From: Squalus acanthias
Taxonomy: Eukaryota
Direction: 5' to 3'
Length of the DNA stretch: 64,000 nucleotides
Assembly (NCBI GenBank): GCA_030390025.1
Contig: CM059432.1
Coordinates: forward strand, 63,552,001-63,616,000
The notes beneath the pieces were generated by a model. It had not been told where the DNA came from. It did not search any database and saw only the letters and a program-made list of their open reading frames with translations. The position numbers and the translations under genes are program-made. Shown here piece after piece: positions 1 through 59,578 of the stretch. Positions within the stretch are counted from its first letter, which is position 1. Each line of letters starts with the position of its first letter.

Positions 1-1500
1 AGTTCATCCATGCAGTCTTTGAATGTTTGCCATTGCCTATCCACCGTCAACCCTTTGAGTGACATTCCCCAATCAATCCTACCCAATCGCGCCTCATACC
101 ATCGTAGTTTCCTTTATTTAAATTCAGGACCCTAGTCTCTGATTCAACTACTTCACTCTCCATCTTAATGAAGAATTCTATCATATTATGATCACTCTGA
201 CCCAAGGGGCCTCGTACAACAAGATTGCTAATTAATCCTTTCTCGTTACATAATACCCAGTCTAAGATGACTTGATCTCTGGTTGGTTCCTCGACATATT
301 GTTCCAGAAAACCATCCCATAAACATTCTAGGAATTCCTCCTCCACAGTATTTTTACTAATTTGGTTAGCCCAATCTATATGTAAATTAAAGTCACCCAT
401 GATGACTGCTGTGCCCTTACTGCATGCTTCTCTAATTTCCCTTTTAATGCCATCCCCAACCTCCGTATTACTGTTTGGAGCTCTATATACCACTCCCACT
501 AACGTTTTCTGCCCCTTGTTATTTCTCAGTTCTACCCATACAGATTCCGCATCATCAGAGCTAATATCCTTCCTTTCAATTGTGTTAATCCCCTCTTTAA
601 CCAGCAATGCTACCCCACCTCCCTTCTTTTTTGCCTATCTTTCCTAAATGTTGAATACCCCTGGATGTTGAGTTCCCAGCCTTGGCCACCCTGGAGCCAT
701 GTTTCTGTAATCCCAATCAAATCGTATTCATTTACCTCTATTTGCGCAGCTAATTCATCCACCTTGTTCCGAATGCTCCTTGCATTAAGCCACAAAGCCT
801 TCAGGCTTGTTTTTTTAACGCTCTCAGACCTATATGAATTATTATTTACTGTGACCATGTTTGATTTAAACCGTTGAGTTCTTTGCCTTCTACTTTTGTT
901 TTTCTCCTTCCTGTCTTTTGCTTTTATCCTTGTTTCCCTTTCCTCTGTCTCCCTGCTCAGGTTCCCAACCCCCTGCCACTTTAGTTGAAATTCTCCCCAA
1001 CAGCACTAGCAAACACTCCCCCTAGGACATCGATCCTGGCCCTGCCCAGGTGTAGACCGTCCGGTTTGTACTGGTCCCACCTCCCCCAGAACCGGTTCCA
1101 ATGCCCCAGGAATTTGAATCCCTCCCCCTTGCACCATTCCTCTAGCCACATATTCATTTGAAATATCCTTCTATTTCTACTCTGACTAGCACGTGGCACT
1201 GGTAGCAATCCTGAGATTGCTACCTTTGAGGTCCTATTTTTTAATTTACCTCCTAACTCCCTATATTCTGCTTTTAGGACCTCATCCCATTTTTTACCTA
1301 TATCTTTGGTACCTATATGCACCACGACAACTGGCTGTTCACCCTCCCCTTCCAAAATGCACTGTAGCCGCTCTGAGACATCCTTGACCCTTGCACCAGG
1401 GAGGAAACATACCATCCTGGAGTCTCGTTTGCGGCCGCAGAAACTCCTATCTATTCCCCTTACAATAGAATCCCCTATCACTATAGCTCTCCCACTCTTC
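1..1500 (-). mobile_element. CR1 LINE, 5' part: ORF1 SGNH esterase domain (981-1500) followed by the ORF2 apurinic-like endonuclease (858 to 1, frameshifted)
   Basis: ORF1 motifs AIVIGDSIVRG, CFLPGARVKDV, VVVHIGTKD, DGLHL. ORF2 motifs WLNARSIRNK, IGITETW, VGVVYRAP, IMGDFN, ILDWVL, SDHN. Frameshift near 610-640. Confidence 0.93.
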
Positions 1501-1508
1501 AAAGTAAA

Positions 1509-2267
1509 TCCAAACATATTCCGATCCCTACAGGTGGGTATGCGCTGTGTACTCACCCGTAGGGACATCGGAAATGCTGGTTTCAGGCATGCACTGCACA
1601 TGTGCTGGAAACCGGCATTTCCGATCTGTCAAGCAAGCTCTTGACAGATCCTCCGGCTGCCCGGGAGAAGGGCCTCTGCAGGTGGATAGTTCTGCTTTTT
1701 GGAGACCCTCCGCCCGCAGAAAACCCTTACAATTCTTGCGCCTGGTAAAAGCAGGCATTAGGCCTGCTTTTACCAGGATAAGAGTTGAAAAAAGTAAAAA
1801 AAAACATTTTTTTTCACTGATTTATCATTTAAAAATACTTTAAAAAAGGTAAGTTAATTTTTAGCCCTGTAAAAAACTTTAATTATTTTTTTCAAAAATT
1901 TAAATTTTTGTTTAAAATAGTTAATTTATTGTAATTTCAAGTCATTTTAAAAATGTGATTTAAAAAAAAATTTATTTAAAGTTTTACTATGTTTTGGGGG
2001 TGATCTCCATTCATATATTTGACAGGTCATCCTGTCAAATGTATGAAGAGAGATTCCCTTCTGTGATTGGCTCCCCATGGCCCACGTGATCTTAGGGACG
2101 CTGCAAACTACCTGCGCCTCTGTGATACGTGGGCCCTGCGCGCTGGCAGTTTGGAGAGGACTAGCATCGGAACTGTGCGTGTCCCGGAAGCCCTCAGGTA
2201 AGGGCGCAGATTTTTCCAGATTGCAGCCCTCCGCCCGCGGGAGGCCTGCGATCGGAGTATCTGGGCC
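1509..2267. mobile_element. Non-autonomous DNA element (MITE family A, copy 1, most diverged)
   Basis: Colinear similarity to 38053-38817 and 60478-61238. Ends catattccgatc / gatcggagtatctgggcc are roughly complementary. Confidence 0.8.
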
Positions 2268-4477: not shown

Positions 4478-5733
4478 AAATCATAGAATCATAGAATGGT
4501 TACAGCACAGAAGGAGGCCATTCGGCCCGTCGAGCCCATGCCGGCTCTCTGCAAGAGCACTTCAGCTAGTCCCACTCCGCCGCCCTTTCCCCGTAGCCCT
4601 GCAAATTTTTTTTTCTTCAGGTACTTATCCAATTCCCTTTTGAAAGTCGTCATTGAGTCTGCCTCCACCACCCTTTCAGTCAGTGCATTCCCGATCCTAA
4701 CCACTCGCTGCGTAAAAAAGTTTTTCCTCGTGTTGCCTTTGATTCTTCTGCCAATCACCTTAAATCTGTGTCCTCTGGTTCTCGACCCTTCCGCCAATGG
4801 GAACAGTTTCTCTCTATCGACTCTGTCTAGACCCCTCATGATTTTGAACACCTCTATCAAATCTCCTCTCAACCTTCTCTGCTCTAAGGAGAACAACCCC
4901 AGCTTCTCCAGTCTATCCACATAACTGAAGTCCCTCATCCCTGGAACCATTCTTGTAAATCTCTTCTGCACCCTCCCTAAGGCCTTCACATCCTTCCTAA
5001 AGTGCGGCACCCACAATTGGACACAATACTCCAGTTGAGGCCGAACCAGTGTTTTATAAACATTCATCATAACTTCCTTGCGTTTGTACTCTATGCCTCT
5101 ATTTATGAAGCCCAGGATCCCGTATGCTTTGTTAACCGCTTGCTCAACCTACCCTGCCACCTTCAATGATTTGTGCACATATACCCCAAGGTCTCTCTGT
5201 TCATGCACCACCTTAAGAATTGTACTCTTCAGTTTATATTGCCTCTCCTCATTCTTCCTACCAAAATGTATCACATCGCACTTTTCTGCGTTAAATTTCA
5301 TCTGCCACGTGTCCGCCTATTCCACCAGCCTGTCTATGTCTTCTTGAAGTCTATCTCTATCCTCCTCACTGTTCACTATACTTCCAAGTTTTGTGTCATC
5401 TGCAAATTTTGAAATTGTGCCCTGTACACCCAAGTCTAAGTCATTAATATATATCAAGAAAAGCAGTGGTCCTAGTACCGACCTCTGGGGAACACCACTG
5501 TATACCTTCCTCCAGTCTGAAAAACAACCGTTCACCTCTGCTCTGTTTCCTGTCATTTAGCCAATTTTGTAACCATGCTGCCATTGTCCCTTTTATTCCA
5601 TGAGCTTCAAATTTACTGGCAAGCCTATTGTGTGGCACTTTATCAAATGCGTTTTGGAAGTCCATGTACACCACATCAATCGCATTGCCCTCATAAACCC
5701 TCTCTGTTACCTCATCAAAAAGCTCAATCAAGT
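4478..5733 (-). mobile_element. CR1 LINE 3' part (RT and C-terminus)
   Basis: YMDFQNAFDKVPH, GVPQRSVLGPLLFLIYIND, KFADDTK, LVRPQLEYC, TRGHRFK, and a (TCATAGAA)n tail. Confidence 0.93.
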
Positions 5734-5735
5734 TA

Positions 5736-8009
5736 TTTTTTATTCATTCATGGGATGTGGGCGTCGCTGGCAAGGCAAGCATTTATTGCCCATCCCTAAT
5801 TGCCCTTGAGAAGGTGGTGGTGAGCTGCCTTCTTGAATTGCTGCAGTCCGTGTGGTGAGGGTACTCCCACAGTGCTGTTAGGGAGGGAGTTCCAGGATTT
5901 TGACCCAACGATGATGAAGGATCGGCGATATATTTCCAAATCAGGATGGTGTGTGACTTGGAGGGGAACTTGGAGGTGGTGGTGTTCCCATGTGCCTGCT
6001 GCCCTTGTCCTTCTAGGTGGTGGAGGTCGCGGGTTTGGGAGGTGCTGCCGAAGAAGCCTTGGCGAGTTGCTGCAGTGCATCTTGTAGGTGGTACACACTG
6101 CAGCCATGGTACGCCAGTGGTGGAGGGAGTGAATGTTTAAGGTGGGTGGATGGGGTGCCAATCAAGCGGCTGCTTTGTCCTGGATGGTGTTGGAGCTTCT
6201 TGAGTGTTGTTGGAGCTGCACTCATCCAGGCAAGTGGAGAGTATTCCATCACACTCCTTACTTATGCCTTGTAGATGGTGGAAAGGCTTTGGGGAGTCAG
6301 GAGGTGAGACACTCTCCGCAGAATACCCAGCCTCTGACCTGATCTTGTTGCCACAGTATTTATGTGGCTGGTCCAGTTAAGTTTCTGGTCAATGGTGACC
6401 CCCAGGATGTTGATGGTGGTGGATTCGGCGATGGTAATGCTGTTGAATGTCAAGGGGTGGTAGTTAGACTCGCGCTTGTTGGAGATAGTCATTGCCTGGC
6501 ACTTGTGTGCCGCGATTGTTACCTGCCACTTATCAGCCCAAGGCTGAATGTTGTCCAGGTCTTGTTGCATGCGGCCATAGACTGCTTCATTATCTAAGGA
6601 GTTGTGAATGGCACCACAACCATCTTCCTTTGTGCTAGGTATGACTCCAGCCACTGGAGAGTTATCCCCCCGATTCCCATTGACTTCAGTTTTACTAGGG
6701 CTACTTGATGCCACACTTGGTCAAATGTTGCCTTGATGTCACTCTCACCTCACCTCTGGAATTCAGCTCCTTTGTCCATGTTTGGACCAAGGCTGTAATG
6801 AGGTCTGCAGCTGAGTGTTCCTGACGGAACCCAAACTGAGCATCGGTGAGCAGGTTATTGGTGAGTAAGTGCCGCATGATAGCACTGTTGACGACACCTT
6901 CCATCACTTTGCTGATGATTGAGAGTAGACTGATGGGTGGTAATTGGCCAGATTGGATTTGTCCTGCTTCTTGTAGACAGGACATACCTGGGCAGTTTTT
7001 CACATTGTCGGATGTTTGCCAGTGTTTTAGCTGTACTGAAACATCTTGGCTAGAGCCGCAGCTAGTTCTGGAGCACAAGTCTTCAGCACAACAGCGGGAT
7101 GTTGTCGGGGCCCATAGCCTTAGATGTATCCAGTGCGCTCAGCCGTTTCTTGATATCACATAGAGTGAATTGAATTGGCTGAAGACTAGCTTCTGTGAAG
7201 GTGTGGACCTCAGGAGGAGGCCGATATGGATCATCCACTCGGCACTTCTGGCTGAAGATGGTTGTCTTTTGTACTCACGTGCTGGGCTCCACCATCATTG
7301 AGGATGGGGATATTCATGGAGCCTCCTCCTCCACCACCATTCATGACTGGATGTGGCAGGACTGCAGAGCTTTGATCTGATCCATTGACTGTGGGATCAT
7401 TTAGCCCTGTCTATAGCATGCTGCTTCCGCTTTTTAGCATGCATGTAGTCCTGTGTTGCAGCTTCCCCAGATTGGCACCTCATTTTTAGGTACGCCTGGT
7501 GCTGCTCCTGGCATGCTCTTCTACACTCCTTATTGAACCAGGGTTGGTCCCCTGGCTTGATGGTAATGGTAGAGTGAGGAATATGCCGGGCCATGAGGTT
7601 ACAGATTGTGGTGGAATACAATTCTGCTGCTGCTGATGGCCCACAGCGCCTCATGGATGCCCAGTTTTGAGCTGCTAGATCTGTTCTGAATCTGTCCCAT
7701 TTGGCACGGTGGTAGTGCCACACAACGCGATGGAGGGTGTCTTCAGTGTGAAGACGTGACTTCCTCTCCACAATGACTGTGTGGTAGTCATTGCTAACAG
7801 TGCTGTCATGGACAGATTTATCTGTGACAGGTAGATTGGTGAGGACGAGGTCAAGTAGGTTTTTCTCTTGTGTTGGTTCTCTCACTACCTGTCACAGGCC
7901 CAGACTCACAGCTATATCCTTTAGTACTTGGCCAGCTTGGTCAGTAGTGGTGCTACCGAGCCACTCTTAGTGATGGACATTGAAGTCCCCCACCCAGAGT
8001 AAATTCTGT
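5736..8009 (-). mobile_element. CR1-superfamily LINE family B with internal deletions
   Basis: REPTQEKNLLDLVLTN, ISLLSIISKVMEG, QFGFRQ, MEYSPLAW. 3' UTR ends ...cccatgaatgaataaaaa. Confidence 0.9.
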
Positions 8010-8423
8010 ACCATCGCCGAATCCCCCACCATCAATATCCTGGGAGGTCACCATTGACCAGAAACTTAACTGGACCAGCCACATAAATACTGTGGCAACA
8101 AGAGCAGGTCAGAGGATGGATATTCTGCGGTGAGTGTCTCACCTCCTGACTCCCCAAAGCCTCTCCACCATCTACAAGGCACAAGTTAGGAGTGTGATGG
8201 AATAATCTCCACTTGCCTGGATGAGTGCAGCTCCAACAACACTCAAGAAGCTCGACACCATCCAAGACAAAGCAGCCCGCTTGATTGGCACCCCATCCAC
8301 CATCTTAAACATTCACTCCATTCACCACCGGCATACCGTGGCTGCAGTGTGTACCATCTAAAAGATGCACTGCAGCAACTCGCCAAGGCTTCTTCGGCAG
8401 CACCTCCCAAACCCGCGACCTCT
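8009..8423 (+). mobile_element. LINE family B fragment in inverted orientation, truncated at the palindrome
   Basis: Homologous to about 6020-6435 on the opposite strand. Stops abruptly at ccaaacccgcgacctct. Confidence 0.88.
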
Positions 8424-8680
8424 TCCCCTTTTCCTGGATCGCATTTGTTCAAAATAACTGAACATAATTTTAATCCAATATTCTATTATCCTGTTACTTA
8501 AACTTTATGTTGAACCTTTAGTATTCCACCTGTTCCTGCATAGGTGATGGAATTAATCCGTCACTATAACAACAACAGCCTACATTTATATATGATGCGG
8601 AGGTGCCGGTGTTGGACTGGGGTGGACAAAAGTGAGAAGTCGCACAACACCAGGTTATAGTCCAACAGTTTTATTTGAAA

Positions 8681-8718
8681 TCACAAGCTTTCGGAGCTGC
8701 TGCCCCTTCGTCAGGTGA
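8681..8718 (-). ncRNA. Minimal type I hammerhead ribozyme motif (mirror copy)
   Basis: Exact reverse complement of 9032-9069. Confidence 0.75.
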
Positions 8719-9031
8719 AGTAAAGGAATACGAATCGACAACGCATATATAGATAGAGAACAATGCATGTGTAGCGTACAATGCCAGATGACTACATTTA
8801 ATCCTCCTGATTGCCTTTCGTTACACCTCGGCAGAGAAACAATCAGGTCAGCCAGGAAGGCACCACATCAAAGACATATTGATGTGGTGCCTTCCTGGCT
8901 GACCTGATTGTTTCTCTGCCGAGGTGTAACGAAAGGCAATCAGGAGGATTAAATGTAGTCATCTGGCATTGTACGCTACACATGCATTGTTCTCTATCTA
9001 TATATGCGTTGTCGATTCGTATTCCTTTACT

Positions 9032-9069
9032 TCACCTGACGAAGGGGCAGCAGCTCCGAAAGCTTGTGA
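9032..9069 (+). ncRNA. Minimal type I hammerhead ribozyme motif
   Basis: tcac-CTGACGA-a-GGGGC agca GCTCC-GAAA-gc-TT-gtga. Helix I is tcac/gtga, helix II is 5 bp, and helix III is minimal with palindromic AGCT. Confidence 0.75.
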
Positions 9070-9879
9070 TTTCAAATAAAACTGTTGGACTATAACCTGG
9101 TGTTGTGCGACTTCTCACTTTTGTCCACCCCAGTCCAACACCGGCACCTCCGCATCATATATAAATATAGGCTGTTGTTGTTACAGTGACGGATTAATTC
9201 CATCACCTATGCAAGAACAGGTGGAATACTAGAGGTTCAACATAAAGTTTAAGTAACAGGATAATAGAATATTGGATTAAAATTATGTTCAGTTATTTTG
9301 AACAAATGCGATCCAGGAAAAGGGGAAGCAGACAGAAAAGTGCAGAGCACTGAAACATTGAATGATCAGTCCGTCATTAGGCATTACCTATTGTTTAGTA
9401 AGGTTTTGAGTTGACTGGAGGATACTCAGCAATGTTACAGCAAAAGGCTTTTACCCACTTCTGTTCAGGTGTTCTTTATCTACTTTTCTTTGGCTTCTAC
9501 CCATAGGTGTTTCTAGGAAGAGCAAGGATCGAGGGATATGGTGATGGTGGTTAGGTGGGTCAGTTAATTCAAATGAGATTGGTTTGTTGGGCCTAATGAT
9601 TGCTTTCTCTTCCTAAAACATGTTGGGACATGTTTTACACTCCTGGCTGTAGAAATGTTAATATCCCCATTTCTCAAGTTCATTTGGCCAACATTCTTCC
9701 ATGTGAAATACCTTTTATTACTTTGGCATTAATGTTAAAATCAAACATCTGGCCAATCCCTACTTAACGCTGACAACCTTAGATTTACATTTAACATCCA
9801 CTGAATGCTATATGTAACACTCACTGCCATTAACCCAGCAACAGAGAGCACATTTTTAAGGCTACTGCGTCTCAGCCGT

Positions 9880-11420
9880 GAACACAGAAAGCCTTTTCAC
9901 AGACAGGCTCTGTCTGAACTTGTGGATGTGGTGCTTGAATGGAGAGAGACTCTTTAGATAAGTAGGAATCATCACCAATTCCAGATATGAATGTTGAATG
10001 TTGCTGAGAGGGTGAATGTTGTGTCCTTGATCCACAGACAACAAATGAGACCAGGAAGAATTACAATGACTTGCGCAAAGGTGTGAAGATAAGCTAACAC
10101 TAAAACATAAAAATGGGTCAACGAGCAGATATGGATTGTAAAGTTATTTATGACAAGCTGCTTTGAATGTAAACATCCTGTTACCATCATTACATGAGTT
10201 AAATAAGGTTGCACAGTTAAAATTAATAGGCAAGTGGACTACACATAATGCAAGCACCCAGAAAGGTGGAAAGCTCAACCTGGATGTTACTATAATTTCA
10301 TATTTTCAAAAATGGCAGATGAATGTCTGGAAATGAAGAGCGAGATGTTATATGGGACAAACTATGGACCCTCTTTGTTATTCATGTCCTGTTTGAATTA
10401 TATCTGTGTACTTTCTTTTTTTGAAAGAAGTTAATATTTGGTTTATTCTATGTGAAGCTGCTTTACAAGCCAGAGCCAGCAGTGAGACTGGAGGGGTAAA
10501 GTTCTAGGAGAAGATTGTGCTGACCTACCGAGTTTATTGAGCTTAAGACCCTTTTAACAGTAGAATCTCTTGAGGTGGTATCTCTACGCCAAATATCAAC
10601 AGAATCCAGACAGTAAACAAAAATATTCACACTGTATGTACTGCCTTGACTGCGCAGTTATATTAATATGCTCTCCATTGTCTCATTCACTCTCTTCGCA
10701 GGTGAAGAGCCCAGCTAAGTGGTCACTACCACCTCCCAGGAGCAAGAGGCATGGCAGCAGGAGGAGTGTTCCCCTCCTTACTTCATAGGAGGACAGAATC
10801 ATCTATTTCACAATTTAGGGAGCTACATCATGATTCAGTCAGTAAAGATCAGAGCACTATTGTATGAGTGTTAACAGAGGAATAGGGTTATTTGTTCCTA
10901 CATTACAACAGTGACTACACTTCAAAAGTACTTCATTGGCTGTAAAGTACTTTGTGATGTCCTGAGGTCGTGAAAGGTGCTATAAAAATGCAAGTCTTTC
11001 TTTCTTCTTTTATAGGAATGCACAGGACCAGAAAAGACCATTTAAATCCAACTGGTCCCAGAGTTCAAAACTGGAATACACATTACACTACCCCTCAATT
11101 GATTTTCTTGTCAAATGCCTGCCCAATTCACTCATGATTACTGTTACTTGATTGCCTCCCTGAGTAGTCTATTTCAAACATCCACCACTGTCTATATGCC
11201 TGATTTGTCCAATTATCTTTCTTTTCAAAGTGGCACAGAGATATTGAGCAGAGGTCCACCCAATCTGAATCTTCTCCAGACACATTTAAGAAGCAGGCCT
11301 TTCAGTGACCCATTTGAGTAGAGCATGCTGGGCCATGTGTATGCTGCATCTATCTCAATTGTCTCCACAGGAAACATGATATGGCAATGTCTGGATGCTC
11401 TGAAAAAGGTATTGAGCATC
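9880..11420 (+). pseudogene. Ancient Harbinger-type Myb/SANT gene relic
   Basis: Across frameshifts it reads ALSELVDVVLEWRETL...NVAERVNVVSLIHR/TTNETRKNYNDLRK, then a gt donor at 10081. ETGG-like motif near 10485 and an acceptor near 10701. Downstream extent uncertain. Confidence 0.5.
10893..11010 (+). mobile_element. 3' fragment of Deu-domain SINE
   Basis: Matches the 3' end of 37497-37885 (ttacaacagtgactacacttcaaaagtacttcattggctgtaaag...aatgcaagtctttc). Confidence 0.8.
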
Positions 11421-14693: not shown

Positions 14694-15835
14694 TTACTGG
14701 TATCGCTCATGAATTATTTGATCACGTAGAGCCTGGGCAGAAAGTGGCTGTCTACGTTGTAACCTCCCTTCCTCTTCCTGTTCCTTCACTTCCTCTTGCA
14801 CTTCCTCTTCCACTTCCTCCTCCTCCTCTTTCTTGTGCTCCTGCTCCTTAGCTTCTCGCCTGATAGGTGGTGGCAAGGGCTGTTCCCTCATAATGGTGAG
14901 GTTATGTAGCATGCAGCATACTACCACATATCTTGATACCCGCTCAGCTGAGTACTGTAGGGGTCCTCCAGAGTGGGCTAGGCAGCAGAAGTATTGCTTG
15001 AGGATGCCGATTGTGTGCTCTATAATGTTGCTTGTGGCAGCATGGCTCTCATTGTATGTCTGCTGTGCACATGTGTATGGGTTTCAGACAGAAGTCATGA
15101 GCCATGTCATGAATGGATATTCCCTTGTGCAGAGTAGCCAGCCTTTGGCTTGCTGTGGTGGGTCAAATGCATCTGGCACAGAGGACTGCCACAGAATGAA
15201 GGAATCTCTACTCCTGCCAGGATGATGGGCATTCACACTGCCTGTGGCCACACACCAGCTGCACATTGAGGGAGTGGAATCCCTTTCAGTTCAGGAAAAT
15301 GGCCGAGTTCACTTGAGGCGCACGCAAGGCAATGTGCGTGCAGTGAATGGTGCACTTCACCATGGGGAAGCTTGCAATCCCAGCAAACGCTTATGCTTGC
15401 TCTGGCTGCTTGTCTCTGGCAAGAGAAAATGAGATTAAAATGTTTCTCTGTGTATAGAGAGCCTCAGTGACCTCTCTTATGCAGCAGTATGCTACAAACT
15501 GTGAGATGTTGCTTACATCTCCAGCAGCAGCCTGAAAGGAGCCAGACGCATAAACATTAAGAGCCACAGTCACCTTGACAGCCACAAGCAATGCGGTTCT
15601 TTCCCTGCTTTGAGGTTGCAGCTGCGTTTGCAGCAATTGGCAGAATTCAGCCAACACGTCATTAGTGAAGCGAAGACATCTCAAGCATTGGTCGTCGTTG
15701 AAGACCCTCGGTGGATATGGCCTCCTTCTCGCCCTCCTCCTCCCTCTTTTAGCATCTTCTCCTGCTCTGTGTGGCCTCACTTCATTCTCTCAGTCGTGCT
15801 TAATTCCAAGAGGAAGGCCTACCAGGCCACCCATG
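14694..15835 (-). pseudogene. Harbinger (HARBI1-like) DDE transposase, frameshifted
   Basis: RRRPYPPRV, VAVKVTVALNVYASGSFQAAAGD, HPGRSRDSFILWQS, WLMT, IEHTIGILK-like sequence, VVCCMLHN. Confidence 0.88.
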
Positions 15836-16277: not shown

Positions 16278-17331
16278 GTCCAAACATGGACAAAAGAGCT
16301 GTATTTCAGAGGTGAGGTGAGAGTGACTGCCCTTGACATCAAGGCAGTATTTGACCAAATGTGGCATCAAGGAACCCTAGTAAAATTGAAGTCAATGGAA
16401 AACAGTGAGAAAACTCTCCATTGGCTGGAGTCATAGCTAGCACAAAGGAAGATGGTTGTGGTTGTTGGAGGCCAATCATCTCAGTCTCAGGACATTGCAT
16501 GCAGCAAGACCTGGACGACATTTAAGCTTGGTCTGATAAGTGGCAAATAACATTTGCGCTACACAAGTGCCAGGCAATGACTATCTCCAACAAGCGAGAA
16601 TCTAACCACCACCTTTGACATTCAATGGCATTAACATCACCGAATCCCCCACTACCAACATCCTGGGGGGTCACCATTGACCAGAAACTTAATTGGACCA
16701 TCCACATAGCTACTATGGCTACAAGAGCAGGTCAGAGGCTGGGTATTCTGTGGCAAGTGTCTGATCTCCTGATTCCCCAAAGTCTTTCCAGCATCTACAA
16801 GGCACAAGTAAGGAGTGTGATGGAATACTCTCCACTTGCCTGGATGAGTGCAGCTCCAACAACACTCAAGAAGCTCGACACAATCCAGGACAAAGCAGCC
16901 CGCTTGATTGGCACCCCATCGACCACCTTAAACATTCACTCCCTCCACCACTGGCGTACCGTGGCTGCAGTGTGTACCATCTACAAGATGCACTGCAGCA
17001 ACTCTCCAAGGCTTCTTCGGCAGCACCTCCCAAGCCTACGACCTCTACCACCTAGAAGGACAAGTGCAGCAGGCGCATGGGAACACCACCACCTCCAAGT
17101 TCCCCTCCAAGTCACACACCATCCTGAATTGGTAATATATCGCCGTTCCTTCATCGTTGCTGTGTCAAAATCCTGGAACTCCCTCCCTAACAGCACTGTG
17201 TGAGTACCTTCACCACACGGACTGCAGCGGTTCAAGAAGGTGGCTCACCACCACCTTCTTGAGGGCAATTAGGGATGGGCAATAAATGCTGGCCTTGCCA
17301 GCGACGTCCAAATCCTGTGAATGAATAAAAA
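16278..17331 (+). mobile_element. LINE family B 3' part with internal deletion
   Basis: TALDIKAVFD, GVTIDQKLNW, YKAQVRSVMEYSPLAW. Tail gaatgaataaaaa. Confidence 0.92.
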
Positions 17332-18529
17332 ACAAGTATCTTTGACACAAACACATTAATATGCCTTAGTCATAAAAGGGTGGACATGTCATCACAAGTT
17401 GCCAGCTGCAGGTACTTAGGGGAATTAAAGTACGGGAAAATGAATTTGGAGGTAGCACAACTTATGCAGTAGCAAATCGACAGCCCTTTTTACAGCCCAA
17501 AAGAATGCATCCTAAGCATAACATGTGGTAGAAGCACTGAGGATAGTGCAGCAGATGGCTGGAGTAATGGTGGAGTCCACTGCCATCCTTTGTGGAATCA
17601 CCAGGAAAACCATATCATCATTGCAGGGTACTCTGGAGCATGTGGCAACTCCAAAAGCATCTACTGCCACACTGAAATACCTGAAATAAAGATGGACAAA
17701 CTTTAACATTTTTTTCTAAAATTTCTTAAAAATTTTAATTTTTTATTAAAATAGACAAATTTCATACTGCACAAAATTAAAATTATTTTTGCAGGCCCTT
17801 TACCTTTTTTTTAGCAGTCAATACGCTGTTAAAACTCCAGTTACACCTAATCCCTTTGGGTCTAACTTTTAGTGGGGAATTTAACAGCGTACTTACTGCA
17901 GAAGAGCCGAAGTTTTCATTAGTTTCTCTGATTTGGGTGATTACACAGATTGCCGGCTCTGTTGGGAAGGGGGGCAGGTGGGGTGGGGTAGGGGACACAG
18001 TGCAGCCTGTGTCAGAGCTGTGAATGACAGACCACAACTTCAGGATTTCCACATGCGCCTGTGCATGCAACAAATCTCGAAGTTGCGGTCAGTTTCAAAG
18101 GCGGAATTATGGCAAACGCTGCCAGTTCGCCATCATCCCGACCGCAAAATCCAGGCCCTGGTCATACTTTGCAGCCAGACGTCTCACACACCCATGATCC
18201 TCAGGTAGCACCTGGCAGGAGCACTAGATTAGGCCTGAGGATATCATGCAGGGGCACCAAGGGGAAGGGGGAAGCACAGTGTGCGTAAGCCGTAGGCACT
18301 ATAATGGCAGCAGGTGCTGAAAATAAACCTCTTGCTGATAGTAAGTGTACTATTTCGGTGCAATTTCCCTTGCCAGTTGACTCTTAACTTTGATGTTGGG
18401 TGAAATCTGTGTTAGCTGACTGACTGCGATAGTATTTGGTTTGTTTTAATTAGCAGAGAAGGTGTCCACAATAAGCTATCGAAGAATGGCTCTTGCAGTC
18501 AATAACAGTTGATCATCTGTGTCTTCTTT

Positions 18530-19250
18530 TGCTACTGCTCCTCTGCAAAACGTTGCCCCACAGCTGTATCACCTCCCTCCTTGGGGACATCAATGAGTAG
18601 GTCTTTCTGTAGGTTTAAATTGTACAGAATGCATGAACAATTATAATACAAGAGACTCTGCTGGGTGTATACAGGAGAACGATTCATACATATGAAACTA
18701 CCATTCAGCGTTCCAATGGTGTGCTCTATGAGAATGCAGGCGGCAGCATGGGCCTCATTGTAGCATTCCTGGCCAGATGTGATGAATATCCACACAGGTG
18801 TCATGAGCCACAGTGGCAATAGCCACCCAGGCAGTTGCTTGTCCAAGTGAAAGACAGCTGGCATGGTGGATTGGCATAAAAGGAAAGTGCCATGGCAGCT
18901 GTCAGGAAACGAAGTGATCATATGCATATCATTCGCGTTGTTGGTCACATACCAGCTTTATATTGAATGAATGGAAGCTTTTACGGTTCACGTACTTTTC
19001 AAGTATTGACATATGGTGCCCAAATGACCACATAGGCAGCATCTATGACACTCTGCATGTTGGGGAAGCCAGGTATATTACAGAAATTAATAGCCCTATC
19101 ATTCTAATGCTGGGGGAGGGTTCATTCCAAAGTTTACAAATGGGGCGGGCTTGCTAAACAAGTCATCAGTTACCTGACACATGCAGGTATGAACTGCATC
19201 GAAGATTCAAGATCTTGCCAAAACAAGTGCGAAAGAAAACTTGAACAGAA
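18530..19250 (-). pseudogene. Ancient Harbinger transposase relic
   Basis: FPDSCHGTF, GWLLPLWLMTP, YNEAHAAACILIEHTIGTL, CILYN. Confidence 0.7.
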
Positions 19251-19899: not shown

Positions 19900-22110
19900 C
19901 AGGGCCAATGACTTTAGATAAAATTGTTGGAAAGTTCCTGAAATAGACTGTAAATACTGTGGAAAATATCATGTCTTTCTCAAGCTCAGAAGAATAATGC
20001 ATGTAGAGAAGAGAACCATTTTTCAGTTAAGTGTTTGAACAAAGATAAACAGCAACTACATACAGTAGATGAAGCTAGATGTGACCCAGATTAAAGTCAC
20101 ATTCTCTTGCTTGAAGTTGTTGGTAGTTGTATAAGACCAAACTGCTAACAAATTATATTCCAATATGCTCATAAACAACAAGCAAGCCAGGTTCCAGTTA
20201 GACCGTGGTACGACTGTCAATTTTCTACCTGAGACTAAATACCTGAGACTGATGATCCAAGTGGCAGAAAGCTTCAGTATTCTAAACTTCACGGGGGTGA
20301 AATTGAATTCAATGGAAGAGAAAATCAGGCATGGTGTAAAACGGGCTGCCAATTTATTACAAGCCCATTTCCCGTTACTGGTGTAGATCAATTTCATCCC
20401 ACTTCTCATGTTTAAAAGAACAGAAACAGTCATGAAATAGAAGACAGTAAATCATGAGAACATCATGACGATGAATGCTTTATCAATCACAAAACAAAAT
20501 GTAGTGGCCAAGTACCAGGATGTATTCAGAAGAGAGGGGAAGTTAGAAGGCCTACTGAACCACCAAATTAAGCTCAGAATCTCACCTAATTGATTACCAG
20601 CCAGGAAACTCTCTAGCTGAAAAATAACTTTTAAAGAAGCATGTTTAATGAGCTTGTTGATCAGAAAGTGTCTTGAATGACGCGGTACCTTTAGCGGTGG
20701 CAGTAACAAAAAGGAATGATTAAGTGTATCTGTGTGTCAATCCAAAGCTATTTAAAAGACTCTCAAGTATAATCATTAAGTACTTCGAACCACAGATGAT
20801 GTTCTGTCTAAACCAATGAAAGTGAAACTACTCACAGTTGTGGATTCAAAGAATAGGTTTCGGCACATTCTATTGGATGAAGAATTGAATCTCTAGACTA
20901 CTCTTTCTACACCATTTGGAAGGTTTAGATGCTTGTTCATGCCTTTCAGAATTCTCCAGCTCCTGATGAACTTCAGAGAAGACTTCACAGGATATTAAAA
21001 AATCTTGAAGGAGATGCTGTCATAATGGATGATATTTCAGTCTGCTGTACAGATGAACAGGCCATAATTGAAAACTGAAACCCAGTTGAAACAATTTCAA
21101 CAAGACAATATCAAACTGAACAAGGGTGAAATTAAGATGAAGGAATGAGAAATGGAATATTTGGATCACAAACTCCTGGAAGATAGATGAAAATCAGATC
21201 CTACTAAAGTTAAAGAAGTACAAATTATTCAGAGAATTCTTGGAATGACTATCTGCATCAGTTTGCTTCAAAGTTATCAAAGGTGACTGTTCTTCTTAGT
21301 GACCTACTGAAGAAAGAAGTTGACTTTACATGGGACTCACCATGAAAACTATCTGCATGAGGTCAAGAACCAGCACTAAAATACTTTGACAACAATAAGG
21401 ATGTGTGATGCATCTCAAAGAGAACAACAAGCGTGTCTCATGTAAAATAGTGAGCCTATGGTTTACCTCAAGATCTCTAACTGAAACACAGATAAATTAA
21501 GCTCAGACTGAAAAAAAAAGCTTTTAATCATTGGCTGAGAATTTCCTCGGAGGTGCACTGGCCCTGCCTCCGCAACTTTGTTGGAAATGCAGTGTAAATG
21601 GGGATTCCACTGCACTTCTGGAAAAGTTACAGTGGTGGAGCGGAAGCTGCTCTGAGGAAATACCCAGCCATTGTTTTTGGTTTGGAGAAATTTGAGCTGT
21701 ATATTTTTGGAAAGAAAATTACTGTAGAATGTGATAACAAACTGTTTGAAGCCATTTTGAAAAAGAATCATGTGATGTGCTCAAAAGTACTAATTTGATC
21801 TTGTCTTCAAGAGAGGCAGGGATATGTTTCTTGCTGGCATGCTGAACACATACTATCTACTTCATATTACCAGAAACAAGCAAATCATGACAATTGACAC
21901 ATGTTCAAAAGCAGAATAGGAGATAGATGCCATCAATATGCTGTAAATATGAGAATGGAATGACCAAAATTAAGCAAACTACCAAATGAGATGAAGATCT
22001 GAAATAGTTGAGAATGACAATAAATAAAGGATGACCTGACACAAAAGAAGTGCCACTCCAGATTGTTGTATATTTCACCATTAGAGAAGAAATTAACAGA
22101 AAAATGGACT
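19900..22110 (+). mobile_element. Decayed Ty3/Gypsy gag-pol (zinc knuckle, protease, RT, RNase H)
   Basis: CKYCGKYH, FQLDRGTTVN, VDSKNRFRHI, STPFGRFRCLFMPF, IMDD, IVFGLEKFELYIFGKKITVECDNK. Confidence 0.82.
21533..21669. mobile_element. 137-bp Harbinger-like MITE inside the Gypsy RNase H
   Basis: TIRs ggctgagaatttcctcggag / ctctgaggaaatacccagcc. ATT duplicated at 21530-32 and 21670-72. Confidence 0.85.
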
Positions 22111-30444: not shown

Positions 30445-31177
30445 TCAATCTGCCAATTACCACCCCATCAGTCTACTCTTAATCATCAGCAAAGTGATGG
30501 AAGGTGTCGTCGACAGTGCTATCAAGCGGCACTTACTCACCAATAACCTGCTCACGGATGCTCAGTTTGGGTTCCGCCAGGACCACTCAGCTCCAGACCT
30601 CATTACTGCATTGGTCCAAACATGGACAAAAGAGTTGAATTCCAGAGGTGAGGTGAGAGTGACTGCCCTTGACATCAAGGCCGCATTTGACCGAGTATTG
30701 TATCAAGAAGCCCCAGTAAAACTGAAGTCAATGGGCATCAGGGATAACTCTGCACTGGCTGGAATCATACCTAGCACAAAGGAAGATGGTTGTGGTTGTT
30801 GGACATAATCATCACAGCCCCAGGACTTTGCTGCAGGAGTTCCTCAGGGCAGTGTTCTAGGCCCAACCATCTTCAGCTGCTTCATCAATGACCTTCCCTC
30901 CATCATAAGGTCAGAAGTGGGAATGTTCGCTGATGATTGCACAGTGTTCAGCTCCATTCGCAACTCCTCAGGTAATGAAGCAGTCCATACCCGCGTGCAG
31001 CAAGACCTGGACAACATTCAAGCTTGGGCTGATAAGTGGAAAATAACAAATAACATTCACGCCACACAAGTGCCAGGCAATGACTATCTGCAACAAGCGA
31101 GAGTCTATCCACCTCCCCTTGACATTCAACAGCATTACCATTGCCAAATCCCCCTCTATCAACATCCTGGGGGTCAC
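30445..31177 (+). mobile_element. LINE family B internal RT fragment
   Basis: NYHPISLL, ALDIKAAFD, GVPQGSVLGP, MFADD. Confidence 0.92.
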
Positions 31178-40379: not shown

Positions 40380-43300
40380 TTTTTTTTAAAATTCGTTTAT
40401 GGGATCTGGGCGTCGCTGGCAAGGCCAGCATTTATTGCCCATCCCTAGTTGCCCTTGAGAAGGTGGTGGCGAGCTGCCTTCTTGAACCGCTGCAGTCTGT
40501 GTGGTGCGGGTACTCCCACAGTGCTGTTAAGGAGGGAGTTCCAGGATTTTGAAACAGCGACGATGAAGGAATGACGATATACTTCCAATTCAGGATGGTG
40601 TGTGACTTGGAGGGGAACTTGGAGGTGGTGGTGTTCTCATGTGCCTGCTGCCCTTGTCCTTCTAGGTGGTGGAGGTCGCGCGTTTGGTAGGTGCTGCCGA
40701 AGATGCCTTGGCGAGTTGCTGCAGTGCATCTTGTAGATGGTACACACTGCAGCCACGGTACGCCGGTGGTGGAGGGAGTGAATGTTTAAGGTGGTGGATG
40801 GGGTGCCAATCAAGCAGGCTGCTTTATCCTGGATGGTGTCGAGCTTCTTGAGTGTGGTTGGAGCTGCACTCATCCAGGCAAGTGGAGAGTATTCCATCAC
40901 ACTCCTTACTTGTGCCTTGTAGATGGTGGAAAGGCTTTGGGGAGTCAGGAGGTGAGACACTCGCCGCAGAATACCTAGCCTTTGACCTGCTCTTGCTGCC
41001 ACAGTATTTATGTGGCTGATCCAGTTAAGTTTCTGGTCAATGGTGACCCCCAGGATGTTGATAGTGGGGGATTTGGCGATGGTAATGCCATTGAATGTCA
41101 AGGGGTTAGACTCTCGCTTGTTGGAGATAGTCATTGCCTGGCACTTCTGTGGCATAAATGTTACCTGCAACTTATCAGCCCAAACCTGAACGTCGTGCAG
41201 GTCTTCTTGCATGTGGGCATGGACTGCTTCATTATCTGTGGAGTTGTGAATGGCGCTGAACCCTGTGCAGTCATCAGCGAACATCCCCATTTCTGACCTT
41301 ATGATGGAGGGAACGGTCATTGATGAAGCAACTGAAGATGATTGGGGCTAGGACATTGCCCTGAGGAACTCCTGCAGCGATGTGCTGGGGCTGTGATGAT
41401 TGACCTCCAACCACCACAACCATCTTCCTTTGTGCTAGGTATGACTCCAGCCAGTGGAGAGTATTCCCCCTGGTTCACATTGACTTCAGTTTTACTAGGG
41501 CTCCTTGATGCCACACTCGTTCAAATGCTGCGTTGATGTCAAGGGCAGTCACTCTCATCTCACCTCTGGAATTCAGCTCCTTTGTCTATGTTTGGACCAA
41601 GGCTGTAATGAGGTCGGGAGCTGAGTGGTCCTGGCGGAACCCAAGCTGGGCATCAGTGAGTAGGTTATTGGTGAGTAAGTGCCGCTTGATAGCACTGTCG
41701 ATGACACCTTCCATCACTTTGCTGATGATTGAGAGTAGAGTGATGGGGCGGTAATTGGCCGGATTGGATTTGTCCTGCTTTTTGTGGACAGGACATACCT
41801 GGGTAGTTTTCCACATTGTCGGATAGATGCCAGTGTTGTAGCTGTACTGGAACAACTTGGCTAGAGGTGCGGCTAGTTCTGGAGCACAAGTCTTCAGCAC
41901 GATAGCCGGGATGTTGTCGAGGCCCATAGCCTTTGCTGTGCCCAGTGCGCTCAGCCGTTTCTTGATATCACGTGGAGTGAATCGAATTGGCTGAATACCG
42001 ACTTCTGTGATGGTGGGGACCTCGGGAGTAGGCCGATATGGATCATCCACTCGGCACTTCTGGCTGAAGATGGTTGTAAACGCTTCAGCCTTGTCTTTTA
42101 CACTCACGTGCTGGGCTCCACCATCATTAAGGATGGGGATATTCTTGGAGCCTCCTCCTCCCGTTAGTTGTTTAATGGTCTACCACCATTCACAACTGGA
42201 TGTGGCAGGACTGCAGAGCTTTGATCTGATCCGTTGATTGTGGGATCGCTTAGCCCTGTCTATAGCATGCTGCTTCCGCTGCTTAGCATGCATGTAGTCC
42301 TGTGTTGCAGCTTCCCCAGGTTGGGACCATATTTTTAGGTACGCTGGTGCTGCTCCTGGCATGCTCTTCTACACTCGTTGCTGAACCAGGGTTGGTCCCC
42401 TGGCTTGGTGGTAATGGTAGAGGGAAGGATATGCCGGGCCATGAGGTTACAGATTGTGGTGGAATACAATTCTGCTGCTGCTGATGTCCCACAGCGCCTC
42501 ATGGATGCCCAGTTTTGAGCTGCTAGATCTGTTCTGAATCTATCCCATTTAGCACGATGGTCGTGCCACACAACATGATGGAGGGTGTCCTCAGTGTGAA
42601 GACGGGACTTCGTCTCCACAATGACTGTGCGGTGGTCACTGCTGCAATGCTGTCATGGACAGATGCATCTGCAACTGGTAGATGGGTGAGGACGAGGTCA
42701 AGTAGGTTTTTCCCTCGTGTTGGTTCTCTCACCACCTGTCGCAGGCCCAGACTGGCAGTTATATCCTTCAGGACTCAGCCAGCTCGGTCAGTAGTGGTGC
42801 TACCGAGCCACTCTTGGTGATGGACATTGAAGTCCCCCACCCAGAGTACATTCTGTGCCCTTGCTACTCTCAGTGCTTCTTCCAAGTGGTGTTCAACATG
42901 GAGGAGTACTGATTCATCAGCTGAGGGATGGCGGTAGGTGGTAATCAGCAGGAGGTTTCCTTGCCCATGCTTGACCTGAAGCCATGAGACTTCATGAGGT
43001 CCGGAGTCAATGTTGAGGACTCCTAGGGCCACTCCTTCCCGACTGTATACCACTGTGCCACCACCCCTGGTGGGTCTGTCCTGCCGGTGGTGAAAGGATT
43101 CGCAAAATTTCATGTGTCCCCCCCCGAAGATTTTATTGGACTTATTAAAAGGAACCCTGGTTAGACTGAGTTTTAAAATCCAGGGCATGGCTGCGGTCAG
43201 ACCTTGTGACCAAGAGCCTGGCAGTTTTCATTTCAGACGCTGGCAAACTATCAGCTTGTGTATTCCGATGCATTGGGGACAAACCCAATTACAATCAGGT

Positions 43301-57459: not shown

Positions 57460-59578
57460 TGGGGCATGGAGGTTAGGGCATTGGGGGCGCGGAGGATAGG
57501 GCATTGGGGGTGCAGAGGAAGGGCATTGGGGGCACAGAGGATAGGGCATTGGGGGCGCAGAGGATAGGGCATTGGGGGCGCAGAGGATAGGGCATTGGGG
57601 GCGCAGAGGATAGGGCATTGGGGGCGCAGAGGATAGGGCATTGGGGGCGCAGAGGATAGGGCATTGGGGGCGCAGAGGATAGGGCATTGGGGGCGCAGAG
57701 GATAGGGCATTGGGGGCGCAGAGGATAGGGCATTGGGGGCGCGGAGGATAAGGCATTGGGGGAGTGGAGGGTAGGGCATTGGGGGTGCAGAGGAAGGGCA
57801 TTGGGGGCGCAGAGGATAGGGCATTGGGGGCGCAGAGGAAGGGCATTGGGGGCGCAGAGGATAGGGCATTGGGGGCGCAGAGGATAGGGCATTGGGGGCG
57901 CGGAGGATAAGGCATTGGGGGAGTGGAGGGTAGGGCATTGGGGGAGTGGAGGGTAGGGCATTGGGGGCATGGAGGGATGGGCATTGGGGGCACAGAGGAT
58001 AGGGCATTGGGGGCACAGAGGATAGGGCATTGGGGGCGCGGAGGATAGGGCATTGGGGGCGCGGAGGGACGGGTATTGGGGGCGCGGAGGAAAGGTCATC
58101 GGGGGCGCGGAGAATAGGCATTGGGGGCGCGGAGGATAGGGCATTGGGGGCACAGAGGATAGGGCATTGGGGGCGCGGAAGGATGGGCATTGGGGCGCAG
58201 AGGATAGGGCATTGGGGGCGTGGAAGGACGGGCATTGGGGGCGCGGAGGATAGGGCATTGGGGGCGTGGAAGGATGGGCATTGGGGGTGCGGAGGATAGG
58301 GCATTGGGGGCATGGAGGGATGGGCATTGGGGGCGCGGAGGATAAGGCATTGGGGTGCGGAGGATAGGGCATTGTGGGCATGGAGGATAGGGCATTGGGG
58401 GCGCGGAGGGACGGGTATTGGGGGCGCGGAGGAAAGGACATTGGGGCCGCGGAGGATAGGACATTGGGGGCGCAGAGGATAGGGCATTGGGGGCGCGGAG
58501 GATAGGGCATTGGGGGCACGGAGGATAGGGCATTGGGGGTGTGGAGGGATGGGCATTGAGGGTGCGGAGGATAGGACAATGGGGGCACGGAGGATAGGGC
58601 ATTGGGGCGTGGAGGGATGGGCATTGGTGGCGTGGAGGGATGGGCATTGGGGGCGCGGAGGATAGGGCATTGGGGGCGAGGAGAATAGGGCATTGGGGGC
58701 ACGGAGGATAGGGCATTGGGAGCGCGGAGGATAGGGCATTGGGGGCGCGGAGGATAGGGCATTGGGGGCGCGGAGGATAGGGCATTGGGGGTGCAGAGGA
58801 AGGGCATTGGGGGTGCAGAGGATAGGGCATTGGGGGCGCAGAGGATAGGGCATTGGGGGCACGGAGGATAAGGCATTGGGGGAGTGGAGGGTAGGGCATT
58901 GGGGGAGTGGAGGGTAGGGCATTGGGGGCATGGAGGGATGGGCATTGGGGCGCAGAGGATAGGGCATTGGGGGCGTGGAAGGACGGGCATTGGGGGCGCA
59001 GAGGATAGGGCATTGGGGGCGTGGAACGATGGGCATTGGGGGTGCGGAGGATAGGGCATTGGGGGCATGGAGGGATGGACATTGGGGGCGCGGAGGATAA
59101 GGCATTGGGGTGCGGAGGATAGGGCATTGTGGGCATGGAGGATAGGGCATTGGGGGCGCGGAGGGACGGGTATTGGGGGCGCGGAGGAAAGGACATTGGG
59201 GCCGCGGAGGATAGGACATTGGGGGCGCAGAGGATAGGGCATTGGGGGCGCGGAGGATAGGGCATTGGGGGCACGGAGGATAGGGCATTGGGGGTGTGGA
59301 GGGATGGGCATTGAGGGTGCGGAGGATAGGGCAATGGGGGCACGGAGGATAGGGCATTGTGGGCGTGGAGGGATGGGCATTGGTGGCGTGGTGGGACGGG
59401 CATTGGGGGCGCGGAGGATAGGGCATTGGGGGCGCAGAGGATAGGGCATTGGGGGCGAGGAGAATAGGGCATTGGGGGCGCGGAGGATAGGGCATTGGGA
59501 GCGCGGAGGATAGGGCATTGGGGGCGCGGAGGATAGGGCATTGGGGGCGCGGAGGATAGGGCATTGGGGGCGCGCAGG
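57460..59578 (+). repeat. G-rich minisatellite, 23-bp unit GGGCATTGGGGGCGCRGAGGATA, about 92 copies
   Basis: Directly visible tandem array with variant units. Confidence 0.97.

What the first reader, a model, noticed from the sequence alone, without database searches (positions are those of the whole stretch)
8422..9328. 907-bp palindrome built from two head-to-head Penelope-like termini plus inversely duplicated flanking DNA
Seen: 450-bp arms, a 7-nt loop (AGACATA) and no indels. The inner ~280 bp per arm is a PLE-like terminus and the outer ~170 bp is unrelated AT-rich flank, also mirrored. The left edge cuts a LINE mid-sequence at a CT microhomology. Known: PLE insertions often include inverted pLTR segments. 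Inference: insertion went through a hairpin or fold-back intermediate that kept copying into target DNA and rejoined with a deletion, so a PLE generated an inverted duplication of host DNA. Transcription would give a long dsRNA hairpin, and the DNA could extrude a cruciform.
Basis: partly seen in the sequence, partly recalled or inferred. Interest (0 to 1): 0.8.

Follow-up and report, generated by a model that had tools for sequence, protein, structure and literature searches.

The report
Penelope palindrome that mirrored host flank
Two head-to-head end-pieces of a Penelope-like jumping gene plus 170 bases of neighbouring chromosome form a 907-base mirror image, and the direction of its 7-base centre suggests the host DNA was likely copied by a strand switch between two separately made arms rather than by one copy folding straight back; it is likely a rare repair scar, similar to ones described at human LINE-1 insertions.

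Summary
The palindrome is as described: 450-bp arms, 7-nt spacer, no indels, 4 mismatches, all in the outer 170 bp. Public-run contigs show 8879-9158 is a very high-copy repeat with a minimal hammerhead and a 36-nt tail. 9159-9328 is host DNA continuous with the right flank, and two related organisms appear to have the empty site. The left junction cuts a LINE about 290 bp short of its 3' end, with 1-2 bp microhomology. A second individual shows an indirect fork exactly at the arm end; no listed contig bridges the junction. New point: the spacer is the element's own next 7 nt, continuous with the LEFT (copied) arm. Best model (0.45): an ordinary two-armed Penelope insertion, then a template switch between its arms copied tail plus flank and rejoined with a deletion. 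The scan noted mirrored-flank Penelope insertions before on other DNA (3 unchecked notes); L1 analogues are in print. No sign of function. New variant of a known kind; interest 0.3.

The parts
4486..5735 (-). Older LINE fragment (CR1-like, label recalled) into which LINE A inserted; its frame stops at A's 3' end and no upstream half was found right of the palindrome
   Evidence: RVT_1 hit on 5447-5743 (E 5.6e-6, below Pfam's cut-off); frame begins NLIELFDEV at 5735; the upstream motif occurs only at about 2368; no repeat of the 10-14 nt left of A elsewhere in the window
5736..8012 (-). LINE copy A, 3' end at 5736, 5'-truncated at 8012
   Evidence: 88-92% identical to the copy at 40382-42859, whose frames hit RVT_1 and Exo_endo_phos
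8009..8422 (+). LINE piece B, joined head to head to A and cut about 290 bp before the family's 3' end: the left breakpoint of the rearrangement
   Evidence: 94.2% to A 6023-6436, 93.7% to 40672-41084; too diverged to be a copy of A made with the palindrome (arms 99.1% alike)
8422..8591 (-). Inverted copy of the 170-bp host flank 9159-9328; starts with 1-2 bp (C or CT) shared with the LINE
   Evidence: outgroup contigs match it end to end and go on into the right flank, not the LINE
8592..8627 (-). Inverted copy of the 36-nt tail; canonical insertions often carry the tail at one end only
   Evidence: mirror of 9123-9158; PMC8557442 passages
8628..8871 (-). Left Penelope-like end-piece, with a minimal hammerhead at 8681-8718
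   Evidence: identical to 8879-9122; motif scan
8872..8878 (-). 7-nt spacer: the element's own next 7 bases, continuous with the left arm and inverted relative to the flank-attached right arm
   Evidence: loose ends before 8879 end in TATGTCT in X1 (9 contigs) and X6 (2 contigs); the reverse complement of the spacer is TATGTCT; chance of a 7-mer match 6e-5
8879..9122 (+). Right Penelope-like end-piece, 5'-truncated, very high copy
   Evidence: depth and loose-end tables
9032..9069 (+). Minimal type I hammerhead motif: CUGACGA, extra A, 5-bp helix II closed by G-C, GAAA, palindromic GC, 4-bp helix I; predicted to be locked in the long hairpin in a read-through RNA
   Evidence: features match passages of PMC4209133; no Rfam hammerhead hit
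9123..9158 (+). 36-nt tail between the two main 3' end positions of the family
   Evidence: loose ends pile at 9122 (66 contigs in X1, 42 in X5) and 9158 (91 in X1, 92 in X5, 30 in X7)
9159..9328 (+). Native host flank, AT-rich at the insertion point; the template of the mirrored copy
   Evidence: flank-level depth; contigs of X1, X3, X7 and X8 run from it into 9329+

Best explanation
This 907-bp palindrome consists of two head-to-head end-pieces of a very abundant Penelope-like repeat plus a mirrored 170 bp of host flank, and it most likely arose when a strand copying the left arm of an ordinary two-armed insertion switched onto the complementary right arm, copied on through the tail into host DNA, and rejoined inside a LINE with a deletion. 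Steps: (1) inferred: the element cut AT-rich DNA at 9158/9159; the right end primed a cDNA at the tail start and the left end primed a second one. (2) Shown: the two element copies end 7 nt apart and meet with no homology; inferred: they were end-joined. (3) Inferred: the minus strand, having copied the spacer and entered the left arm, paired with the 244-nt complementary right arm, either during second-strand synthesis or later at a fork or break. (4) Shown: tail, junction and 170 bp of flank are present twice. (5) Shown: the left neighbour is a LINE lacking about 290 bp of its 3' end, joined at 1-2 bp homology; inferred: a deletion removed that end, the target-site duplication and the original left flank. 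The element supplies the inverted repeat; host repair most likely did the copying.
For: Spacer continuous with the left arm, which fits this model and not a run-through snap-back. No priming homology at the turn (spacer ends in A facing A). Two family end positions 36 nt apart match the two RT start sites and both-strand cleavage and extension of PAc (PMC11167929 parts 1-2). Head-to-head inverted copies, often with a one-sided tail, are a common PLE layout (PMC8557442, PMC3846280). A tail on both arms with the same junction means the outer left arm was copied from DNA. Template switches at existing inverted repeats are known (PMC5453318, PMC8604942 passages), as are fold-back inverted duplications closed by end joining with 0-5 bp homology (PMC11724301 section 15). 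The site appears empty in organisms C and D. The fork at the arm end in sample S2 speaks for a real junction.
Against: Orientation alone does not single this model out: 4 of 7 symbolic models match, and the same model with the right cDNA longer does not. If the flank was copied after or with the inner arms, the outer part should not be the more diverged, yet it holds all 4 mismatches; this needs later homogenisation of the centre, which could also have flipped the spacer and erased the signal. No precursor allele was seen. Two runs of sample S1 give single unbranched contigs across 9328. No listed contig bridges 8421/8422 (32 of 42,690 pieces shown). That two-armed palindromes are common in this genome rests on unchecked notes; no genome was held to test it.
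Confidence: 0.45

Rival explanations
1. One cDNA, primed on the right flank, was sealed to the top strand as a hairpin-capped end, or its two replicated sister ends fused. A nick 170 bp into the flank on the cDNA-bearing strand then unfolded it and the new end joined the resected left end. This is a fold-back at insertion.
For: Matches the spacer orientation (model H1), the blunt centre, and the tail on both arms without a second priming. Foldback junctions holding the TPRT insertion on the primary RT end are described for L1 (10.1101/2024.12.14.628481 passages).
Against: Needs a second nick on one specific strand; the other strand gives the wrong orientation (H2). In the L1 examples read, foldbacks are resolved by translocation, triplication or large changes, not shown as a 170-bp local repair.
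Confidence: 0.2
2. One reading: the flank-primed cDNA snapped back, ran through its own priming site 170 nt into host DNA and joined the left end; a later exchange between the arms flipped the spacer and homogenised the centre.
For: One later event would explain both the inverted spacer and 0 mismatches in the inner 280 bp. Spacer inversion with arm homogenisation is documented (PMC8604942 passages; PMC5453318). L1 foldback duplications of 52-220 bp are the same size (PMC10191854 passage).
Against: Needs two events; no templated priming base pair at the turn; the direct product has the wrong orientation. The mismatch skew is only P about 0.02, post hoc, and overall arm divergence (0.9%) is close to the haplotype differences (0.5%, 0.85%).
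Confidence: 0.15
3. A solo insertion sat here and an unrelated replication template switch (four-point type 1-3-4-2) jumped from the LINE to 9328 on the other strand, copied back through the element, and returned 7 nt further on. The element is a bystander.
For: This type gives an inverted repeat with an inverted spacer and made up 23% of events in human-chimp data (PMC5453318 passage); matches.
Against: Those events are tens of bases long; this one needs a 457-nt copy and a U-turn with no homology that happens to fall inside the element, whose 5' part must then be lost.
Confidence: 0.08
4. Assembly or chimeric-read artefact: two haplotypes or a fold-back read joined head to head.
For: No listed contig bridges the left junction or the centre; sample S1 shows no fork at 9328 in 2 of 2 runs laid; no raw long reads were available.
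Against: In sample S2 the flank contig starts at 9299, the first 31-mer that holds 9329, and bin depths require a second contig (depth about 6.9) covering only about 9299-9328. Each arm carries one derived change against the outgroups (8518 left, 9214 right). The spacer is element sequence, not adapter.
Confidence: 0.07
5. Two primings at the same site on two chromatids or homologues were joined head to head, or the LINE landed later and cut a once longer left arm.
For: Flanks from two alleles would differ while both cDNAs are identical, as seen; P of 4 or more differences in 170 bp at 0.85% is 0.06.
Against: Needs two identical cuts and a further break. LINE pieces A and B differ by 5.8%, above the 4.3% between this genome and organism C, which lacks the element here, so the LINE looks older.
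Confidence: 0.05

Closest known systems
Complex insertions of endonuclease-bearing Penelope-like elements (PMC8557442 passages; PMC3846280 passages and Discussion; PMC11167929 parts 1-2 of 4)
   Same: 5'-truncated copy with an adjacent inverted copy, head to head; 30-40-bp tail; minimal hammerhead; AT-rich target
   Different: Tail on both arms, 170 bp of host flank mirrored, no target-site duplication, left flank lost; no ORF in the window
L1 insertions with short foldback inversion (PMC10191854, passage: 52-220 bp, n = 3, 0.3%, plus 1 with an internal inversion too)
   Same: Inverted duplication of target-site DNA of the same size, ascribed to extra DNA synthesis at resolution
   Different: There the duplicated DNA lies upstream of the target site; here the flank on the primed (3') side is duplicated together with the element end
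L1-induced local inversions, inverted duplications and foldback junctions (bioRxiv 10.1101/2024.12.14.628481, passages)
   Same: Remodelling of retrotransposon-made break ends, foldback junction containing the insertion, short deletions
   Different: Somatic and experimental L1 events; here an apparently inherited event with a Penelope-like element, resolved locally
Template switching at inverted repeats and fold-back inverted duplications (PMC5453318 and PMC8604942 passages; PMC11724301 abstract and section 15; PMC3907307 abstract)
   Same: A 3' end pairs with an inverted repeat, copies flanking DNA backwards, and rejoins with little homology; spacer orientation records the route
   Different: Seeded here by a 244-bp element-made repeat; size lies between the short yeast and human cases and the large human ones

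Membership tests
Penelope-like element (EN+) | ORF with telomerase-like RT and GIY-YIG endonuclease | not testable with these tools
   The arms hold no long ORF; no genome held; 0 loci from 5 collection scans
Penelope-like element (EN+) | Minimal hammerhead in the terminal repeat (extra base after A9, G10.1-C11.1, palindromic 15.2-16.2) | tested here: met
   9032-9069 against PMC4209133 passages; Rfam gave no hammerhead hit
Penelope-like element (EN+) | Optional 30-40-bp tail between two 3' end positions | tested here: met
   Loose-end piles at 9122 and 9158 in X1 and X5
Penelope-like element (EN+) | Dispersed high-copy repeat, 5'-truncated, AT-rich target | tested here: met
   17,221 contigs laid in X1, nearly all the depth on 8872-9161; diverse flanks after 9158; target reads ATATAAATAT
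Canonical inverted PLE insertion | Adjacent inverted 5'-truncated copy, head to head | tested here: met
Canonical inverted PLE insertion | Tail usually at one end only | tested here: not met
   Tail on both arms
Canonical inverted PLE insertion | Direct target-site duplication around the unit | tested here: not met
   Left of the element lies an inverted copy of the right flank, then a cut LINE
Run-through snap-back duplication | Spacer continuous with the arm attached to native flank | tested here: not met
   Spacer is continuous with the copied left arm; a later flip cannot be excluded
Run-through snap-back duplication | Priming homology at the turn | tested here: not met
   0 bp on either side against the family's upstream letters; an untemplated base could hide it
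Fold-back inverted duplication with deletion | Duplicated DNA is native single-copy flank | tested here: met
   Depth and outgroup contigs
Fold-back inverted duplication with deletion | Adjacent deletion with 0-5 bp homology at the rejoin | tested here: inconclusive
   LINE B lacks about 290 bp of 3' end, the older LINE lacks its other half, 1-2 bp homology; the ancestral left flank was not read
Fold-back inverted duplication with deletion | Junctions confirmed by spanning reads | tested here: inconclusive
   Only contigs available; indirect fork in S2, none in S1
MITE or DNA transposon with terminal inverted repeats | The whole unit recurs as a family with its outer ends | tested here: not met
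   Outer 170 bp at flank-level depth; no other copy in the window
miRNA precursor | Rfam score above the family's gathering score | tested here: not met
   All 16 matches are below their gathering scores; 15 lie on the hairpin centre

The most novel reading that the evidence does not exclude
Head-to-head Penelope insertions are recurrent germline seeds of inverted duplication plus deletion of host DNA in these genomes, and the orientation of the few spacer bases is a readable record that separates two-ended priming from snap-back. Scored over all mirrored-flank copies, it would settle how the inverted PLE layout forms, which the papers read here call undefined.
Probability: 0.3. Interest if true: 0.6.

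Novelty: new variant of a known kind. Interest (0 to 1): 0.3.

Why it matters
How Penelope-like elements make their inverted structures is described as unresolved (PMC8557442 passages). This locus offers a cheap test: which arm the spacer belongs to. It also suggests, with three unchecked scan notes on other DNA, that such insertions occasionally duplicate and delete host DNA as L1 does. The locus itself lies among dead repeats and shows no sign of function: 10 of 79 frames scanned hit Pfam, all with domains typical of mobile elements apart from one weak low-complexity hit. A mirrored host flank at a PLE insertion did not turn up in the listings of my searches, which cover open-licence papers only.

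Tried and rejected
No whole genome was held, so no copy count, family consensus or ORF link. Pattern scans found nothing: viral contigs 2 scans, metagenome contigs 2, prokaryote genomes 1. Run search: 24 rows in 9 studies, no RNA holder listed; this says nothing on expression. I laid 6 of the 24 runs (X1, X3, X5, X6, X7, X8), all contigs. The letters of the empty-site flank (121 nt in X7 and X8) and of the second X5 branch were not among the loose ends shown (24 of 493 rows, 24 of 207), so the deletion could not be sized. X5 and X6 have no cover over parts of the outer arm, which proves nothing. Two short junction contigs (59 and 67 nt, 1 difference each) occur in both X3 and X5; I could not tell alleles from arms and drew nothing from them. 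Rfam hits are hairpin look-alikes below threshold. The isolated hammerhead stretch folds no better than shuffles (z 0.52), so the motif call rests on sequence features. LINE B as a copy of A made in the same event: rejected, 94% against 99%. RNA-editing origin of the arm differences: the two that can be polarised are C to T and G to A, not A to G. Outer 170 bp as element sequence: rejected. Scan notes: nothing by sequence, nothing near this place, nothing on spacer orientation. Pfam was given 70 of 257 non-repeated frames, all in the first 30.3 kb, plus 9 other frames, mostly LINE-type, so host exons are not excluded. No supplementary files were read; Supplemental Fig. S1 of PMC5453318 may bear on the event-type labels.

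Full report
Observation. The inverted repeat is at the stated place: arms 8422-8871 and 8879-9328, 450 nt, no indel, spacer AGACATA. The arms differ at 4 positions, all transitions and all in the outer 170 bp; the inner 280 bp are identical (P about 0.02 under a uniform rate, post hoc). No other copy of the arm lies in the window. No whole genome was held. That the organism is a shark or ray comes from unchecked scan notes and my recall of the repeats, not from a test.

What the inner part is. I laid contigs of 4 public runs on 8872-10600. Summed depth is about 2e5 to 5e6 over 8872-9161 in X1 and X5 (organism A). It falls to flank level by 9220 where covered. Organism C (X7) has no cover over 8872-8987, so that part of this subfamily was not seen there. 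Contigs leave the element at two main places, 9122 and 9158, into diverse flanks: a 36-nt optional extension like the 30-40-bp tail of Penelope-like elements (PMC8557442 passages; PMC11167929 parts 1-2 of 4, where it lies between two RT start sites). A minimal hammerhead sits at 9032-9069 on the + strand with the features listed in PMC4209133 (passages). Rfam gave no hammerhead hit. The defining RT and GIY-YIG ORF could not be tested, so 'Penelope-like' rests on the ribozyme, tail, layout and abundance.

What the outer part is. 9159-9328 is host DNA. Contigs of X1 and X3 (sample S1) run from it into the right flank, and organisms C (X7) and D (X8) each give a 530-bp contig that matches 9158 onward and has 121 unmatched letters on the other side. 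I read these as the empty site; the letters were not shown. So the right arm is the native one and the left outer arm is the copy.

The left junction. Left of 8422 lies LINE piece B (8009-8422, +), joined head to head to LINE A (5736-8012, -). B stops about 290 bp before the 3' end of the copy at 40382. A sits in an older LINE whose frame ends at 5735; neither its upstream half nor a target-site duplication was found right of the palindrome. Both point to a deletion at 8421/8422. The shared bases are C, or CT if this copy had T, as 2 of 4 other aligned copies do. B is 94% identical to A, too low to have been copied from A together with arms that are 99% alike.

Is it real? No listed contig bridges 8421/8422 with 31 letters on each side (32 of 42,690 pieces shown), and both runs of S1 give one unbranched contig across 9328. 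S1 may lack the mirror, or the assembler may have pruned a thin link into a huge repeat (inference). For it: in X5 (sample S2, another study) the flank contig starts at 9299, the first 31-mer that holds 9329. Depth there is 18.5 at 9309 but 11.6 from 9336, and the bin means (10.9, 11.5) fit a second contig of depth about 6.9 covering about 29-30 bases up to 9328. That is a fork at the exact arm end, though its letters were not seen. Against the outgroups each arm has one derived base (8518 left, 9214 right); the other two sites could not be polarised. The right flank differs from S1 at 7 of 1416 and from S2 at 11 of 1302 bases, so neither laid contig is the window's haplotype. I put artefact at 0.07.

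The centre. Loose ends before 8879 end in TATGTCT in X1 (9 contigs) and X6 (2 contigs), and in X1 continue with letters unlike the arm. TATGTCT is the reverse complement of the spacer. The spacer is therefore the element's next 7 bases and continues the left arm, the one attached to copied flank. A cDNA primed on the right flank that snaps back and runs on would put those bases on the other strand. In a symbolic test 4 of 7 routes give the observed order: two cDNAs joined with the left one longer plus a switch between arms; a hairpin cap opened on the cDNA strand; an inter-strand 1-3-4-2 switch; and snap-back followed by a spacer flip. Plain run-through, a cap opened on the top strand, and two cDNAs with the right one longer do not. 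The turn has no templated priming base pair.

Mechanism. I favour an ordinary two-armed insertion whose 244-bp inverted repeat let a growing strand change arms, copy tail and 170 bp of flank, and rejoin in LINE B (0.45). The layout is common for these elements in print, and unchecked scan notes report thousands of such palindromes with one tail in this genome. Those notes moved me from a solo-element switch to this model; I could not test them. Timing, at insertion or later, is open.

Known relatives. L1 insertions with 52-220-bp foldback duplications of target DNA (PMC10191854 passage) and L1-induced inverted duplications and foldback junctions (10.1101/2024.12.14.628481 passages) work alike. 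General fold-back and template-switch routes are in PMC11724301 (abstract, section 15), PMC5453318 (passages) and PMC3907307 (abstract). A PLE with mirrored host flank did not appear in the listings. The scan has noted the same kind before: 322 bp in this genome, and about 140 and 230 bp in others (unchecked); the first two were explained by snap-back.

Function. A read-through RNA is predicted to form one 450-bp hairpin that would lock both hammerheads. No RNA holder was listed and no RNA run was laid. Of 79 frames scanned, 10 hit Pfam, all with domains typical of mobile elements apart from one weak low-complexity hit. Nothing suggests function.

Verdict. Real in all likelihood, a new variant of a known kind, interest 0.3. 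Its value is the spacer-orientation test, which can be run genome-wide.

Noticed in passing
window 5736-8422: Two pieces of one LINE family meet 5' end to 5' end at 8009-8012 with a 4-bp overlap; B repeats part of A in inverse (94%). Could be a two-ended LINE insertion or two separate insertions.
   Followed up: partly
window about 6612 and 16278-17335: LINE A lacks about 158 bp present in three other copies (30796-30954, 41254-41412, 63484-63640); the copy at 16278-17335 aligns across the same point without the gap, suggesting a deleted subfamily.
   Followed up: no
window 9158-9182 and 10980-11010: The insertion point lies in a TATATAAAT...GTTGTTGTT motif with raised contig depth even in organisms lacking the element here; it resembles the repeat end at 10980-11010 (L2-like 3' end, label recalled), so the element may have landed in an old repeat's tail.
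   Followed up: partly
window 57461-59594: G-rich 23-bp minisatellite, about 93 copies, giving long proline-rich frames on the minus strand.
   Followed up: no
window 14697-15083 and 18535-18957: Frames with DDE_Tnp_4 hits (E 4e-11 and 4e-5), likely Harbinger-type DNA transposon remnants (family label recalled).
   Followed up: no
window 21598-21795: Weak RT_RNaseH hit (E 1.4e-4), a likely LTR-retroelement fragment.
   Followed up: no
window 47-1628: 5' part of a LINE with a GDSL esterase frame and an AP-endonuclease frame on the minus strand.
   Followed up: no
window 9062-9065: The hammerhead's predicted cleavage triplet is CUU; U at position 17 cleaves poorly (recalled), so this copy's ribozyme may be weak even if unlocked.
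   Followed up: no
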